Assembly: GCA_043228905.1 (NCBI GenBank)
Contig: JBHGNT010000004.1
Coordinates: forward strand, 2,542,001-2,606,000
Source: Azolla caroliniana
Taxonomy: Eukaryota > Plantae > Polypodiophyta
Direction: 5' to 3'
Length of the DNA: 64,000 bases
This document shows, in pieces, positions 42,343 through 62,418 of this stretch; position 1 is the stretch's first letter; each line of letters starts with the position of its first letter. The translations under genes and the position numbers were made by a program. The notes below the pieces were generated by a model. It made no database searches. It saw only the letters and a list, made by a program, of their open reading frames with translations, and was not told the origin of the DNA.

Positions 42343-43068
42343 TGTCGTGAAGAATTTCGGCCAGAGCCGGAAACCGGGAAACATTGGCTACATCGGCGGG
42401 GTGCAGCATGTGTACGCACCCATGTACATTTAGTGTGAATATCGAGGGCGCCTTTATGGCGCCGAAGAGTAGTCAAGTCGGGACAGACGATCCCATGTAA
42501 GTCGGGATTCATCCCACATTGTAACGCATCCCTCTCCTTGTTCTATAAAAGGAAGGGAACACCCTTTGGGAAAGGGTTACCCATTTTGCATTAGAGGGTA
42601 TACCGTTAGGTCTAGAGTTAGGTTTCTTCTTCTCCTTCTTCTCCCCGACCGACGGCTTGGCAGTTGATGACTACTGTAACCTACCTTGGTCCGGCTCAAA
42701 GCCGAGAATGTATTCTTCTTTTATATATATATACATATACGTTTGCGTCTGTCTGTGTATATTCGCGTCTTCGTTGGTGTCGGGTGCTTCCCCTTTCCTG
42801 CATCTCCTGTACATAGGGGCGTGAGTCGGGTTGGCCTGTGTGTGTGTGTGCGTGTGTGTGCGTAAGTCAGTGTTAAGCGCACGCTCTCCCTCTCTCTCCC
42901 TTCGGTTGCTTCCGGTGTGCTTTTGGGATGCCCCGGAAACGGTGAAGCACGACTTCCTATGCTCCATCACTCCCTAGTCCAAGACCCCCGTGGTCCCGCC
43001 TTTCTCCACGCACGCGCGTAACAACGCGACGTATTTGGTGAACCCGACGTGAAAGGTGGCAAGGGAAT

Positions 43069-44133
43069 ATGGAGTCGGAAGACGAAGATCTTGCGGAGAT
43101 GGTGGCCGAAGTGGTGTTGGAGTCGGCACGAGAGGTGATGAGGCGAGAAGCAGCGCAACAAGCGGTTGAGCGAGTGGTCGAAAGAGTCGGCCGTTTCAAC
43201 GGGGACAAAGTCCCACCTTACTTGGAAGCGTACAACGCAAAAATGGAGGAGCGTGGCGTAGACGAGGCGTTGAGGCTGAAGTTCTTATGTCAGGTCGTGG
43301 CTGTCCGGATGCATGCGGAAATAAAGGAGCTCCGTGAGGCTCATAGTTCGTGGGAGGCCTTCGAAGAGGCGCTCCTGAAGGCATACAGAGGACGGCGGAA
43401 GAGCCGGGGACGACACGACTTCGACCAGTGGGTAGCATCGGCAAAGACCCATCGGGGCGCGACGAAGGCGTTCCGGGAGTTCGAGCGACGGCTTGCTCGG
43501 CTCCCAGAGCGGGAACAAGGTTTGGTGGGGGCGAACAAGGTCCTATTGTTCGTCCGAATGATCGACCGAGCGGAACGGGAGGCCATCGGGATTGAGCTCG
43601 AAGACGATGATGGAGCGAATGGGCTTACGAAGGACTGGTCGAAGGTCGGAAGGGTGTGCCAACGGCTAGATGATGAGCGAGCCGAGAAGGCTAAGAGGAA
43701 GGGGCGCGACGGCGTGCCATCACAACGGGAAGAGGCTGAACGGCAAAGAGAGTCGGCAAGGGTCGGCATTGGGGCCAGGATTGCGGAGGCGTACGGAGCT
43801 TTCAAGGCGATGCTCGAGGAAGAGGGAAGATCGAGGCCGGAAGCCGAGACTGAGGAGACGGACTTGCCCCATGCGACGGTGGAAGATCGGTACGACGGGA
43901 CCACGGGAGAGGGTGAGGAACAAAACACCCTCTTGACTTGCGGAGATAGAACGACCAAGGACGAGGCCGAGATACAGATCGCGGAACCGGATCATTGGGA
44001 CCAGCGGTTTCGGGCATGTCAGCCCGAGATCCCGGCCATTGGAGAAGCAAGCCCAGACGGGGCTTGCGCGATCGGTAAGAAGACGACCGCCGACCACGAA
44101 GAGTCGGTGGCTATGGACAAGGGCGTAAAATAG
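43069..44133 (+). CDS. Gag-like (capsid) protein of N1
   Basis: VGRFNGDKVPPYLEAYNAKM..WEAFEEALLKAY..VLLFVR..LTKDWSKVGRVC aligns by eye with G1 gag; the TAG stop corresponds to CGG in N2/N3. Confidence 0.8.
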   Translation: MESEDEDLAEMVAEVVLESAREVMRREAAQQAVERVVERVGRFNGDKVPPYLEAYNAKMEERGVDEALRLKFLCQVVAVRMHAEIKELREAHSSWEAFEEALLKAYRGRRKSRGRHDFDQWVASAKTHRGATKAFREFERRLARLPEREQGLVGANKVLLFVRMIDRAEREAIGIELEDDDGANGLTKDWSKVGRVCQRLDDERAEKAKRKGRDGVPSQREEAERQRESARVGIGARIAEAYGAFKAMLEEEGRSRPEAETEETDLPHATVEDRYDGTTGEGEEQNTLLTCGDRTTKDEAEIQIAEPDHWDQRFRACQPEIPAIGEASPDGACAIGKKTTADHEESVAMDKGVK

Positions 44134-59258: not shown

Positions 59259-62200
59259 TCCGCCCCAACCTAACCGCACATCCACCGGTATGTGCCAAGC
59301 CCGGTTGAAGGGTGAGAGATTTCGGCCGGTGAGAAACCGGTCTTCCGTGATCCGCATCTCGGCTCGCTGCCGGGTTGACCCGTCGGCTTCGAGTCTTCCT
59401 TCGCGTTCGCCAACCCGTAGGCTCGTTCGACCCGTCGATGGGCCCTCTGCCGTGATCTTCGTAGTACGCGTACTTCCGTTGGCCCTTGTTCGGCCGTATG
59501 AGCGCCCTGCTTCCCGCCGTACGCCCCGATGTCCTCCGCTTGAGGCATGCCCATAGTGGCCCGCTTGGCCTCCGTTGACCCTTCGTGATGCCCTGGTTGT
59601 CGTCCCATGTTGCTTCGGGTGGCCACCGCCCTCTCGCCGCCACCTTCCTTCTCCATGGTCTTACATTGCCGCGTCGGCTCGAACCGCCATGGTCTCCGGA
59701 ACGGTGTGGAGGATCCCTTTCCGGCCTTCTCCGTGCTCGCCTTTCCGCTCCGGCACCTCCGTGTGCCACATACCCTCGTCCGTTCTTTGGCACTGCCCGT
59801 GTTGCACTCCTTCTCGGCCCCCTTTCCGGCCAGATCGTGCATCGCTTCTCACCCGCATACCGGTGTCCTTTGCATCCGAGGAACACCCCGTAGTAGCCCG
59901 CTTGGCCATTCCCGTCTTCATGCCGCTGCAACAGGTCCTGAGTCCCCACTTGCAGTCACGCTTCGATCCGGCCCGCGATGGCCATTTGAGAGACTCTTGT
60001 TCTGTTCTAGGTGTGCGTTTCCGGCCTGACACACCTCCCCGTGTTTGCCCCTACTGGCTCCTTCCGAAGCTCGTGTCGTCAGGTCCCGTTCCCTGCCGCC
60101 ACCGTCCTTCTCCCTCGGTCTCACATTGCCACGTTGGCCGAACTACCAGAGTCTCCGGATCAGTGTGAGGGTCCCATAGGACCGGACTCCGTTTCTATGG
60201 TTGCCGAAATTCGGGTGCTTTTTGTTTGAGTCACTCCCGGACTCTCCTCGTGTCTCCCGCGTAGCCGAGTCCCGTTTCACGCCGCCACCTTCCTTCTCCC
60301 TCGGTCTTACGTTGCCACGTTGGCAGAACGGCCGGAGTCTCCGGAACCGGTGTGGGGATCCCGTAGGACCGGACTTCCTTACGCCCATCAGTATCTTGGT
60401 CTTACGTCGACCGCGTTGCCGACTGCCGAAGTCTCTAAAACCGGTGTGAAGGATCCTCCGTAGGCGTTCGTCGCCTTCTTGACCCTGTCCCGAGTCGTCC
60501 TTTTCTGCATGCCGAGAGAGCGGTTTACTCCGCACCCTCTCCCGTGGTACCGACGTACCATGTCCTCGACCTCTTCGTAGGCCTGCTCTCTTCCTCCCTC
60601 CCGGAATGGTCATCCGGGAGTCTGCTCCGCCCGGTTCTCGTCCGGGTCCGTTCGTCCTTCTCCGGATTGTCGAGTCCCGTTCTCCTGTTGCCACTGATCT
60701 CGCTTATAGGACTCATGCCGGCACTCGGGCCTGCAGCCGGATCGGGGTAAGGAATCCCATAGGACCGGCTTTCATTCTCTTTCCAAATCTCGACCTTCGC
60801 CCGGTTGGTCTTTCTCCCCATGTAAAAGAGGGCGGCTCGTCCCGCACCCCCTTCCGTATCGGCACTTTCATGCCGAATCCGGCCCCGATCGAACAATCCA
60901 CTACCAGATCACGCTCCACCTGTATCGGAATGCCGATCTCCTCGTGTCGTGTCCGTCCTCAGCCTTCTCGCAGGCTGTCTCCCATCCATCTTTGCTGGCA
61001 TCGTGCCAGGACTCTTCAGTACCGCTATCCATCTCCTCGGTCTTACATGGGAATACGGGCCCGAATGCCGAGTTCTCCGGAATCGGGTCTGTGGGCTCTC
61101 GTCCGTTCCTTCCCCGTATCGTCTCGCCGGTGATTCTTGCCCTTTCGCCGCTGCCTTCCTTCGCTGGGACTCACGTGGGCACTCTGGCCCGACTACCATC
61201 GTCTCGGGAGCAAGTGTGGGAAGACACAAAGAATCGCCCGTCCGGTTTACTCCCTTGTCCGTAGCCACCGACTCTTCGTGGTCGGCGGTCGTCTTCTTAC
61301 CGATCGCGCAAGCCCCGTCTGGTCTCGCTTCTCCAATGGCCGAGATCTCAAGTTGACACGCCCGAAACCGCCGGTCCCAATGATCCGGTTCCGCGATCTG
61401 TATCTCGGCCTCGTCCTTGGCCGTTCTATCTCCGCAAGTCGAGAGGGCGTTTTGTTCCGCACCCCCTCTCGTGCTACCATCGTACCGATCTTCCGCTGTC
61501 GCGTGGGGCAAGTCCGTCTCCTCGGTCTCAGCTTCCGGCCTCGATCTTCCCTCTTCCTCAAGCATCGCTTTAAGAGCTACGTACGCCTCCGCAATCCTGG
61601 TCCCAACGCCGACCCTTGCCGACTCTCTTTGTCGTTCGGCCTCTTCCCGCTGTGATGGCACGCCGTCGCGTCCCTTCCTCTTAGCCTTCTCGGCTCGCTC
61701 ATCATCTAGCCGTTGGCACACCCTTCCGACCTTCGACCAGTCCTCCGTAAGCCCATTCGCTCCATCATCGTCTTCGAGCTCAATCCCGATGGCCTCCCGT
61801 TCCGCTCGGTCGATCGACCGGACGAACAATAGGACCTTGTCCGCCCACACCAAACCTTGTTCCCGCTCTGGGAGCCGACCAAGCCGTCGCTCGAACTCCC
61901 AGAACGCCTTCGTCGCGCACCGGTGGGTCTTTGCCGATGCTACCCACTGGTCGAAGTCGTGTCGTCCCCGGCTCTTCCGCCGTCCTCCGTATGCCTTCAG
62001 GAGCGCCTCTTCGAAGGCCTCCCATGAACTATGAGCCTCATGGAGCTCCTTTATTTCTGCATGCGTCCAGACAGCCACGACCCGACAGAAGAACTCCAGC
62101 CTCAACGCCTCGTCTACGCCACGCTCCTCCATTTCCGCGTTGTAGGCTTCCGAGTAAGGTGGGACTTTGTCCCCGTTGAAACGGCCGACTCTTTCGACCA

Positions 62201-62418
62201 CTCGCTCAAACGCTTGTTGCGCTGCTTCTCGCCTCATCACCTCTCGTGCCGACTCCAACACCACTTCGGCCACCATCTCTGCAAGATCGTCATCTTCCGA
62301 CTCTATATTCCCTTGCCGCCTTTCACGTCGGGTTCACCAAAGATGTCGCGTTGTTACGCGCGTGCGTGGAGAAAGGCGGGACCACGGGGGTCTTGGACTA
62401 GGGAGCGACGGAGCGTAG
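58498..62418 (-). mobile_element. Gag-only LTR element N3; 3' LTR 58498-59258, PBS-Trp 62323-62339, 5' LTR from 62344 cut by copia C5
   Basis: Same structure as N2; PPT GGTTAGGTTGGGGCGGA; contains the empty site for the G1 insertion at ~60765. Confidence 0.92.
60909..62306 (-). CDS. Gag-like protein of N3 (start codon mutated to ATA; C-terminal frameshift)
   Basis: 455-aa ORF in the track from 62276; homologous start at 62306. Confidence 0.75.
   Translation of the reverse strand: MESEDDDLAEMVAEVVLESAREVMRREAAQQAFERVVERVGRFNGDKVPPYSEAYNAEMEERGVDEALRLEFFCRVVAVWTHAEIKELHEAHSSWEAFEEALLKAYGGRRKSRGRHDFDQWVASAKTHRCATKAFWEFERRLGRLPEREQGLVWADKVLLFVRSIDRAEREAIGIELEDDDGANGLTEDWSKVGRVCQRLDDERAEKAKRKGRDGVPSQREEAERQRESARVGVGTRIAEAYVALKAMLEEEGRSRPEAETEETDLPHATAEDRYDGSTRGGAEQNALSTCGDRTAKDEAEIQIAEPDHWDRRFRACQLEISAIGEARPDGACAIGKKTTADHEESVATDKGVNRTGDSLCLPTLAPETMVVGPECPRESQRRKAAAKGQESPARRYGEGTDESPQTRFRRTRHSGPYSHVRPRRWIAVLKSPGTMPAKMDGRQPARRLRTDTTRGDRHSDTGGA

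What the first reader, a model, noticed from the sequence alone, without database searches (positions are those of the whole stretch)
42343..62418. Helper/satellite pair: gag-only LTR family using the cis-signals of a Trp-primed gypsy but carrying its own divergent capsid
Seen: three copies (N1-N3) have LTR, PBS, one ORF and PPT but no PR/RT/RH/INT. They share with G1 the LTR start TGTCGTGAAGAA, the terminal motif CAAGACCCCCG.GGTCCCGCCT..CCACGCA..CGACA, the identical PBS TGGTGAACCCGACGTGA, and the PPT plus ~40 nt upstream. LTR interiors differ, and the Gag is only distantly similar to G1 Gag, lacks the CCHC knuckle and has an acidic tail. The first ~350 codons are open in all three copies while G1 gag has stops. 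Known: gag-only TR-GAG elements are described in angiosperms; this PBS complements the tRNA-Trp 3' end. Inference: an old non-autonomous lineage, not a recent deletion derivative, that borrows Pol and may contribute to or interfere with the helper's particles.
Basis: partly seen in the sequence, partly recalled or inferred. Interest (0 to 1): 0.8.

Follow-up and report, generated by a model that had tools for sequence, protein, structure and literature searches.

The report
Capsid-only satellite retrotransposons with long tails
This is an old family of plant jumping genes that has lost all its copying enzymes but keeps a conserved capsid gene with a long, loosely conserved tail, and it likely spreads by borrowing enzymes from complete relatives, a known lifestyle that I did not find described for this branch of elements.

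Summary
The N elements are real. They have LTRs, a primer-binding site and one ORF, and no protease, RT, RNase H or integrase. G1 is a Phygy-like gypsy (4-bp NCGN target duplication, Trp-type PBS), inserted inside N1.

N is not a simple deletion product. Eleven tailed Gags form one clade (100/100) with no knuckle- or protease-bearing member. A sister family's contig carries one 1,419-codon ORF from PBS to PPT and no pol. The capsid region is under purifying selection between families (dN/dS 0.14-0.35); the tail mostly is not (0.5-1.4). N and G1 insert at the same NCGN motif and have similar LTR ages, which fits a borrowed integrase.

Corrections: N1 has no PPT or 3' LTR, and all three ORFs are damaged. 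G1's stops are copy-specific, since intact relatives exist. G1 is a candidate helper, not a proven one.

Best reading: a semi-autonomous partner like wheat Quinta, whose capsid likely works for its own RNA. What differs from published cases is the clade, the lost zinc knuckle and a tail of up to 1,200 residues.

The parts
42110..42342 (-). G2, older autonomous-type gypsy: integrase C-terminal fragment; N1 is inserted into it next to GCGC (NCGN)
   Evidence: 79% to G1 50537-50718; translation
42343..43031 (+). N1 5' LTR (689 bp; terminal CA decayed to CG)
43036..43054 (+). N1 primer-binding site, complementary to a CCA-ended 19-mer (miR894 type); tRNA-Trp identity is recalled
43069..44507 (+). 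N1 gag-tail ORF: capsid at codons ~27-205, conserved helix at ~211-262, acidic tail; premature stop at 44131-44133 and a frameshift after it
44508..44610 (+). N1 3' region up to the G1 insertion; left target duplication CCGG at 44607-44610
   Evidence: empty site seen in contigs of 4 of 4 runs
44611..51573 (+). G1, Phygy-like Ty3/gypsy, 6,963 bp: LTRs 44611-45246 and 50943-51573 (96.8% identical), PBS 45250, gag-PR 45290-47416 with CCHC and three stops, pol in the -1 frame (RT, RH, INT; broken), PPT ~50927-50942
51574..52708 (+). Right target duplication CCGG and the rest of N1's repeat-rich 3' region, truncated (no PPT, no 3' LTR)
52706..53819 (-). G2 pol fragment (RNase H to integrase), 77% to G1; N2 is inserted into it next to ACGT (NCGN)
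53820..54599 (-). N2 3' LTR (780 bp, TG...CA)
54600..57456 (-). N2 interior: PBS at 57452, gag-tail ORF 57419-56124 (431 aa, stop, then a deletion that removes the C-terminal segment), 3' region, PPT next to 54600
57457..57984 (-). Distal part of the N2 5' LTR, beginning at CCGT (NCGN); K2P 0.035 to the N2 3' LTR
57985..58497 (-). Distal part of another N LTR, also beginning at CCGT; inferred nested insertion (solo LTR or end of a further copy)
58498..59258 (-). N3 3' LTR (761 bp)
59259..62343 (-). N3 interior: PBS at 62339, gag-tail ORF from 62306 (ATA start, frameshift in the tail), 3' region, PPT next to 59259
62344..62418 (-). Last 75 bp of the N3 5' LTR, cut by a copia element that starts at 62419 (+)
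   Evidence: copia gag PF14223 at 63378-63998

Best explanation
N is an old lineage of LTR retrotransposons that encodes a conserved capsid with a long tail but no protease, reverse transcriptase or integrase, and it likely transposes by borrowing those enzymes from Phygy-like complete elements such as G1, with its own Gag likely acting on its own RNA. Shown: the structure, the absence of pol, one clade of tailed Gags, purifying selection on the capsid and the helix after it, shared PBS/PPT/LTR termini, the shared NCGN target and similar insertion ages. Predicted: a two-lobed retroviral-type capsid fold. Inferred (about 0.9): RT and integrase come in trans from a Phygy-like family. Inferred (about 0.55): N Gag co-assembles with helper Gag-PR-Pol and favours N RNA in cis. 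Helper Pol is most likely made as a -1 frameshift fusion to helper Gag, so it can only enter a particle through helper capsid; and a Gag serving only as a shared good would not be expected to stay under purifying selection along a pol-less lineage. Inferred (about 0.35): the tail is a spacer whose sequence matters little and whose Trp/Arg-rich end replaces the lost zinc knuckle as the RNA- or membrane-binding part.
For: No pol or CCHC in N1-N3, L002 or L012. L012 has PBS at 316, one ORF at 333-4613 and PPT at 4608; a 1,419-aa protein of that cluster is on record 5 times. 7 of 7 long relatives (474-1,518 aa) have no Pol-related Pfam hit. 0 of 13 N-type loci with at least 400 bp downstream match G-type NC/PR/RT/INT, 11 of 13 match a tail, and the one G-type locus does match. 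Tree of 45 rows: 11 tailed rows form one clade, 100/100, stem 1.12, joined to G1's group at 98/95. Capsid dN/dS is 0.14-0.35 in 10 of 10 comparisons with N2, upper bounds at most 0.51, dS 0.5-1.8; the RNase H control gives 0.20. Pairs without N2 give 0.22-0.38 (3 of 3). Fold: dArc1 capsid Z 10.1 (rmsd 8.5, 158 aligned), N-lobe Z 9.3 (rmsd 1.9, 64 aligned), then Arc, MOAP1, copia and Ty3 capsids. Targets: 4 of 4 N junctions in the window and G1's duplication are NCGN, against a CG frequency of 5-10%. Contigs with unrelated flanks mostly align through the CG beyond the N LTR end (30-38 at 53816 and 17-23 at 53817 per run). LTR divergence is 0.033 for G1 and 0.035 for N2.
Against: No whole genome was held, so the absence of pol-bearing N-type elements rests on short public contigs, and the locus search was built from an N-heavy alignment. 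Among N1-N3 the capsid dN/dS is 0.53-0.78 with intervals spanning 1, and six short comparisons (78-102 codons) gave 0.43-0.57, two of them spanning 1. The tail (codons 263-431) gives 0.49-1.41 in 8 comparisons, only 2 clearly below 1, and tail motifs also recur out of frame in the 3' region, so they may be DNA repeats. All three window ORFs are damaged. The capsid model is moderate (pLDDT 73, pTM 0.43) and Foldseek gave no hit at E<=0.001. The long N stem makes its exact place within G1's group unsure. The table is cut (111 rows hidden), may include related families and favours flanks like the reference.
Confidence: 0.75

Rival explanations
1. N Gag is a shared contribution: it supplies bulk capsid to particles of both helper and satellite, as proposed for wheat Quinta, with no preference for its own RNA.
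For: The same structural evidence fits. The model is proposed for Cereba/Quinta (PMC11302176, passages) and raised for Athila (PMC2410132, passages).
Against: The helper family has intact Gag-PR (708-717 aa in 8 of 14 cluster members). Selection on a purely trans-acting gene in a multicopy family should be weak (inference), yet capsid dN/dS is near the RNase H control. Loss of the knuckle and a tail of up to 1,200 aa depart strongly from helper Gag.
Confidence: 0.2
2. N Gag is a dominant-negative or competitive capsid that joins helper particles and lowers helper transposition (the Ty1 p22 and Fv1 analogy is recalled).
For: The capsid fold is kept while NC, PR and Pol are gone; the long stem in the tree suggests a change of function; a bulky acidic tail could disturb assembly.
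Against: The gene travels with a family that needs the helper and that was inserting at about the same time as G1. No fixed, host-domesticated copy was seen. Interference and a benefit in cis are not exclusive.
Confidence: 0.15
3. N-type gag belongs to an unsampled autonomous lineage; the gag-only elements are repeated deletion products, and the purifying selection dates from their autonomous past.
For: Sampling is limited to short contigs, and no genome was searchable. Pairwise dN/dS cannot date the selection, and within N1-N3 it does not exclude 1.
Against: 0 of 11 N-clade tree rows and 0 of 13 informative loci carry NC/PR/pol. Families about half identical in the capsid share the same derived tail motifs directly after it. 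Two families at dS about 1.1 are both complete from PBS to PPT without pol.
Confidence: 0.08
4. Only the capsid matters; the tail is translated repeat DNA, kept open to avoid a long 3' untranslated region or by hitch-hiking, with no protein function.
For: Tail dN/dS is near 1 in most comparisons. Tail motifs recur out of frame downstream of the stop in N. Tail length varies from about 260 to 1,200 aa.
Against: The 1,209-codon L012 tail has no stop, while the other five frames of the ORF have 17-36 and the longest frame in 400 Markov simulations was 732 codons. A Trp-rich end recurs across families (12 W in the last 90 residues of P0057 against 13 in the preceding 1,079; 8 against 2 in 282 for P0053). 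N itself tolerates a 2-kb 3' region.
Confidence: 0.3

Closest known systems
RLG_Quinta with RLG_Cereba, wheat (PMC11302176; abstract and passages seen)
   Same: Gypsy pair; the non-autonomous partner encodes Gag plus an extra region and no RT/INT; LTR termini, PBS and PPT are conserved while gag has diverged; an old lineage (28-35 million years) split into divergent Gag types.
   Different: Quinta derives from a centromeric element whose integrase carries a CR domain. N derives from a Phygy-like non-chromovirus with NCGN targeting, has no CCHC, has a low-complexity tail of 260-1,200 aa, and spans about six groups at 51-68% capsid identity to N1.
pol-less Athila families of Arabidopsis (PMC2410132; passages seen)
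   Same: Whole families with LTRs and gag (with or without env) but no pol, gag dN/dS about 0.2-0.4, mobilised in trans.
   Different: Athila clade; any extra ORF is a separate env. N has one ORF with no transmembrane-strength stretch (highest 19-residue Kyte-Doolittle mean 1.29 in 7 proteins).
TR-GAG elements (PMC4350172, PMC8704663, PMC13570524; passages seen)
   Same: LTR-PBS-gag-PPT-LTR without pol; transposition shown for an Arabidopsis example.
   Different: TR-GAGs were selected at under 4 kb with 5-bp target duplications; Coffea TR-GAG1 is copia-type and keeps its zinc knuckle; the authors found little conservation between species. N is about 4.4-4.7 kb, has 4-bp NCGN targets and is one deep clade.
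Phygy clade of Ty3/gypsy (PMC6317226; passages and two supplementary table rows seen)
   Same: 4-bp NCGN target duplication (100% of 186 elements), tRNA-Trp PBS (81%), no extra domain or ORF. G1 fits these, and a Physcomitrium patens protein lies in the neighbouring Gag group.
   Different: Described there as a Physcomitrella-specific clade of polyprotein-coding elements of 7.7-10 kb; that survey removed elements lacking the polyprotein region. G1 is 6,963 bp, and its Gag group is separate from the P. patens/Riccia group.

Membership tests
Phygy (G1 as helper type) | 4-bp target duplication with NCGN motif | tested here: met
   CCGG on both sides of G1; definition
Phygy (G1 as helper type) | tRNA-Trp primer-binding site | tested here: inconclusive
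   The PBS is complementary to a CCA-ended plant small RNA, miR894. That this is the tRNA-Trp 3' end is recalled; the two searches for it gave no passage that I read stating it.
Phygy (G1 as helper type) | No chromodomain, archaeal RNase H or extra ORF | tested here: met
   Pfam on G1's open stretches shows only DUF4100, protease (weak), RT, RH and INT; INT runs to about 70 bp from the PPT
Phygy (G1 as helper type) | Size 7,656-9,968 bp | tested here: not met
   G1 is 6,963 bp; the range comes from one species, so G1 is called Phygy-like, not Phygy
Phygy (G1 as helper type) | RT/RH/INT tree places it in the REXdb Phygy clade | not testable with these tools
   REXdb domain sequences are not held; the Gag tree puts G1's group next to a group with P. 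patens and Riccia proteins
Selgy | tRNA-Ala primer-binding site | tested here: inconclusive
   Selgy is 90% tRNA-Ala with no NCGN motif listed; G1 has NCGN and a PBS recalled as Trp, which argues against Selgy
TR-GAG | LTR, PBS, gag ORF, PPT; no PR/RT/RH/INT; two or more copies | tested here: met
TR-GAG | Length up to 4 kb | tested here: not met
   interior 2.85-3.08 kb plus two LTRs of 761-780 bp; L012 interior is 4.3 kb
TR-GAG | 5-bp target duplication | tested here: not met
   4-bp ACGG on both sides of an N-type LTR in L001; NCGN flanks in the window
Semi-autonomous gag-only partner (Quinta type) | LTR termini, PBS and PPT conserved with an autonomous family while interiors and gag diverge | tested here: met
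Semi-autonomous gag-only partner (Quinta type) | Old monophyletic lineage derived from the helper group | tested here: met
   dS 0.5-1.8 between families
Semi-autonomous gag-only partner (Quinta type) | One identified autonomous partner in the same genome | tested here: inconclusive
   G1, G2 and further autonomous relatives (61-77% to G1 Gag) exist; no genome to search
Semi-autonomous gag-only partner (Quinta type) | Gag is expressed and cross-mobilisation is shown | not testable with these tools
   needs RNA, protein and transposition assays

The most novel reading that the evidence does not exclude
N is a retrotransposon satellite that rewrote its Gag into a hijacking device: a divergent capsid that joins helper particles, with the zinc knuckle replaced by a disordered tail of up to 1,200 residues ending in a Trp/Arg-rich anchor. 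The tail would capture N RNA in cis and crowd out or redirect the helper's longer genome, much as capsid-redirecting phage satellites do (analogy recalled). A second, independent tailed Gag lineage (P0110/P0116) may show the same solution arising twice.
Probability: 0.15. Interest if true: 0.75.

Novelty: new variant of a known kind. Interest (0 to 1): 0.42.

Why it matters
Gag-only partners are known in flowering plants, but whether their Gag helps the helper, serves only the satellite or interferes has been argued from sequence alone in the papers I read. This lineage gives a clean test case. The capsid is about 40% identical to the helper's, the zinc knuckle is gone, natural tail lengths run from 260 to 1,200 residues, and a sequence-specific target (NCGN) fingerprints the borrowed integrase. 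It also shows that RT-based classification misses a multicopy, deeply branched part of the Phygy-like group. It is not a new kind of system.

Tried and rejected
No whole genome is held, so no copy census or age distribution was possible.

Complex prediction of helper capsid with N capsid returned no verdict (score 0.01, alignments not used).

Sequencing-run search: no RNA holder listed. Contig depth was not used as copy number.

The PBS pattern found 0 matches in viral contigs and 1 in prokaryotic genomes, in a bacterial record with no LTR-like context in the 130 bases I looked at.

Pfam gave only a sub-threshold Retrotrans_gag hit for N1 (E 0.03) and none for N2 or N3. The ESM Atlas gave an unnamed Streptophyta cluster and gag clusters at 0.90-0.91, a lead only.

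An FFAT-like reading of the tail motif [S/T/P]WHDA[S/R]E (4 proteins) is recalled. The review passages (PMC8306308) did not give the scoring matrix, the motif is absent from P0052/P0053, and the tail is weakly constrained, so I do not claim it.

The 234-241-codon frames crossing the PPT into the LTR of N2 and N3 have no ATG requirement tested and no Pfam hit; I rejected them as a second gene. An env-like role was rejected for lack of a transmembrane stretch.

Four rows without NC/PR fall outside the N clade: P0086 ends before the knuckle, P0164 looks like a chimeric gene model, and P0110/P0116 are kept as a lead. P0055 (1,518 aa) has a 630-residue internal duplication and may be an assembly artefact.

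Earlier-findings look-ups by sequence and by words returned nothing. The three notes by place concern other elements.

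
Full report
Anatomy. The region is a nest of related gypsy elements. An older pol-bearing element, G2, survives as two minus-strand fragments (42110-42342 and 52706-53819). N1 sits in G2's integrase gene. G1 (44611-51573) sits in N1's 3' region with a CCGG duplication; contigs from 4 of 4 runs bridge the empty site. 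N1 then ends at 52708 without PPT or 3' LTR. N2 (57984 to 53820) sits in G2's RNase H gene. Two LTR pieces that both begin at CCGT, and then N3, follow; I read them as N copies inserted into N LTRs at one NCGN site, though unequal recombination could also repeat the piece. A copia element cuts N3's 5' LTR at 62419.

What N shares with G1. The LTR start, a 42-nt block near the LTR end, the PBS and 40 nt including the PPT are shared; the rest of the DNA is not, apart from a 41-nt gag patch. N Gag matches G1 Gag at 39% over 198 residues. A model of N1 residues 1-244 (pLDDT 73, pTM 0.43) matches two-lobed capsids: dArc1 Z 10.1, rat Arc 9.8, MOAP1 7.7, copia 7.4, Ty3 N-lobe 6.7. Foldseek ranks the same class first but at E 0.005 or weaker. 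For helical proteins these Z values are modest; the support is that 13 of the top 15 rows are retroelement-type capsids. G1 continues into a CCHC knuckle, protease and, in the -1 frame, pol. N continues into a helix and an acidic tail.

Helper type. The REXdb survey lists Phygy as 4-bp NCGN duplications (100%) with tRNA-Trp priming (81%), and Selgy as tRNA-Ala (PMC6317226; passages, two supplementary rows). G1 fits Phygy except for size. The PBS is the complement of the CCA-ended small RNA miR894 (PMC5846777, passages); its identity as the tRNA-Trp end is recalled. The neighbouring Gag group holds Physcomitrium and Riccia proteins, so the host is likely a seed-free plant; I did not identify it.

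Is N a deletion product? A search with the N capsid gave 47 near-length relatives and 7 longer ones of 474-1,518 aa, none with a Pol-related Pfam hit. Of 22 metagenome loci, 21 score higher to N and 1 to G. Of the 13 N-type loci with at least 400 bp after the capsid, none matches G-type NC/PR/RT/INT and 11 match a tail; the G-type locus matches as expected. L002 is a circularly permuted 3.9-kb contig of the N family with no pol. L012, 52% identical in the capsid, has one ORF of 1,419 codons from PBS to PPT, and its protein cluster holds that length 5 times among 8 members. In a tree of 45 proteins, chosen from 217 for length at least 330 aa, core alignment at least 160 and at least 90 residues beyond it, plus G1, the 11 tailed rows form one clade at 100/100 with a stem of 1.12. 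It joins G1's group at 98/95, position unresolved; 30 NC/PR-type rows lie outside it. The locus search was N-biased, so the 21:1 ratio is not an abundance.

Selection. Nei-Gojobori dN/dS for codons 1-210 between N2 and 10 of the 21 N-type loci is 0.14-0.35, upper bounds at most 0.51, at dS 0.5-1.8. The G1-G2 RNase H control is 0.20. These share N2; three pairs without it give 0.22, 0.27 and 0.38. Codons 211-262 give 0.13-0.56 in 9 measurable comparisons. Codons 263-431 give 0.49-1.41 in 8, mostly near 1. Among N1-N3 the core gives 0.53-0.78 with intervals spanning 1, as expected for decaying copies. So the capsid and the following helix are constrained and the tail sequence largely is not. The L012 tail frame is still far longer than chance (1,209 codons against at most 732 in 400 simulations), and a Trp-rich end recurs across families.

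Mobilisation. All four N junctions in the window are NCGN (GCGC, ACGT, CCGT, CCGT). Three of four 5' flanks in N-type loci are too (L001, L005, L011; L010 reads ACAT), and L001 shows ACGG on both sides of an LTR. In four runs, contigs with unrelated flanks mostly extend through the CG beyond the N LTR end (table cut). LTR divergence is 0.033 for G1 and 0.035 for N2. N therefore inserted recently with a Phygy-type integrase that it does not encode; borrowing is the inference. G1's stops are private decay: its cluster holds full Gag-PR ORFs of 708-717 aa. Which family helps is open. N's LTR ends in ...CGCGTAACAACGCGACA and G1's in ...GAGGAATACCTCGACA, and some N-type loci have G1-like ends.

Mechanism. 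Pol reaches a particle as a fusion to helper Gag (inferred from the -1 overlap). N RNA must therefore enter a particle containing helper Gag-Pol. Purifying selection along a pol-less lineage means copies with a working gag left more descendants, which points to a benefit in cis. I favour co-assembly of N capsid with helper capsid, N RNA being held by basic or Trp/Arg-rich segments in place of the knuckle. This is untested.

Comparison. Cereba/Quinta (PMC11302176, abstract and passages) is the same design, down to conserved termini and divergent gag. Pol-less Athila families under purifying selection (PMC2410132, passages) and TR-GAGs (PMC4350172, PMC8704663, PMC13570524, passages) are further precedents. 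Searches for Phygy with Selgy, for gag-only elements under selection and for Phygy or non-autonomous elements in mosses and ferns listed no paper on such a lineage; I saw listings and abstract starts only, the library omits most subscription journals, and Repbase-type libraries and unseen supplements could already hold these families.

Verdict. Observation largely right, interpretation mostly right, novelty moderate: a new variant of the semi-autonomous gag-only partner, distinguished by clade, loss of the knuckle and a very long tail. Interest 0.42.

Noticed in passing
window 30731-36190 (-): Apparently intact copia element: one open frame of 1,387 codons (31386-35549) and LTRs about 99% identical over 300 nt, so a very recent insertion.
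   Followed up: partly
window 36962-40985 (-): Organelle-like insert with tRNA-His, -Gln, -Leu, -Met and pieces of prokaryote-type large-subunit rRNA; probably a nuclear copy of mitochondrial or plastid DNA.
   Followed up: partly
window from 29959 (-): LTR end of a further Phygy-like family, with a terminal sequence closer to N's than G1's is; its flank is not NCGN as read. It could mark a better-matching helper or another satellite.
   Followed up: no
window 57457-58498 (-): Repeated insertion at the same CCGT site inside the N LTR; NCGN targeting appears to make these CpG-rich elements their own preferred landing sites.
   Followed up: partly
proteins P0110 and P0116: Gag capsids from the P. 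patens/Riccia-side group with no knuckle and an acidic tail; P0110 ends in an aromatic segment. Possibly an independent origin of the same design; no DNA context was available.
   Followed up: partly
window 47395-47416 (+): G1 Gag-PR ends on a run of T directly before its stop, with pol in the -1 frame; relatives P0203, P0093 and P0099 end in DF. Looks like a conserved -1 frameshift site.
   Followed up: no
PBS at 43036, 45250, 57452, 62339: The PBS is the exact complement of miR894, an abundant land-plant small RNA mapped to gypsy elements (PMC5846777); both families could be silencing targets of it.
   Followed up: no
window 25603-29957 (+) and 24418-25650 (+): Two decayed copia elements, nested or adjacent; the first is 77% identical to the intact copia over part of pol.
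   Followed up: no
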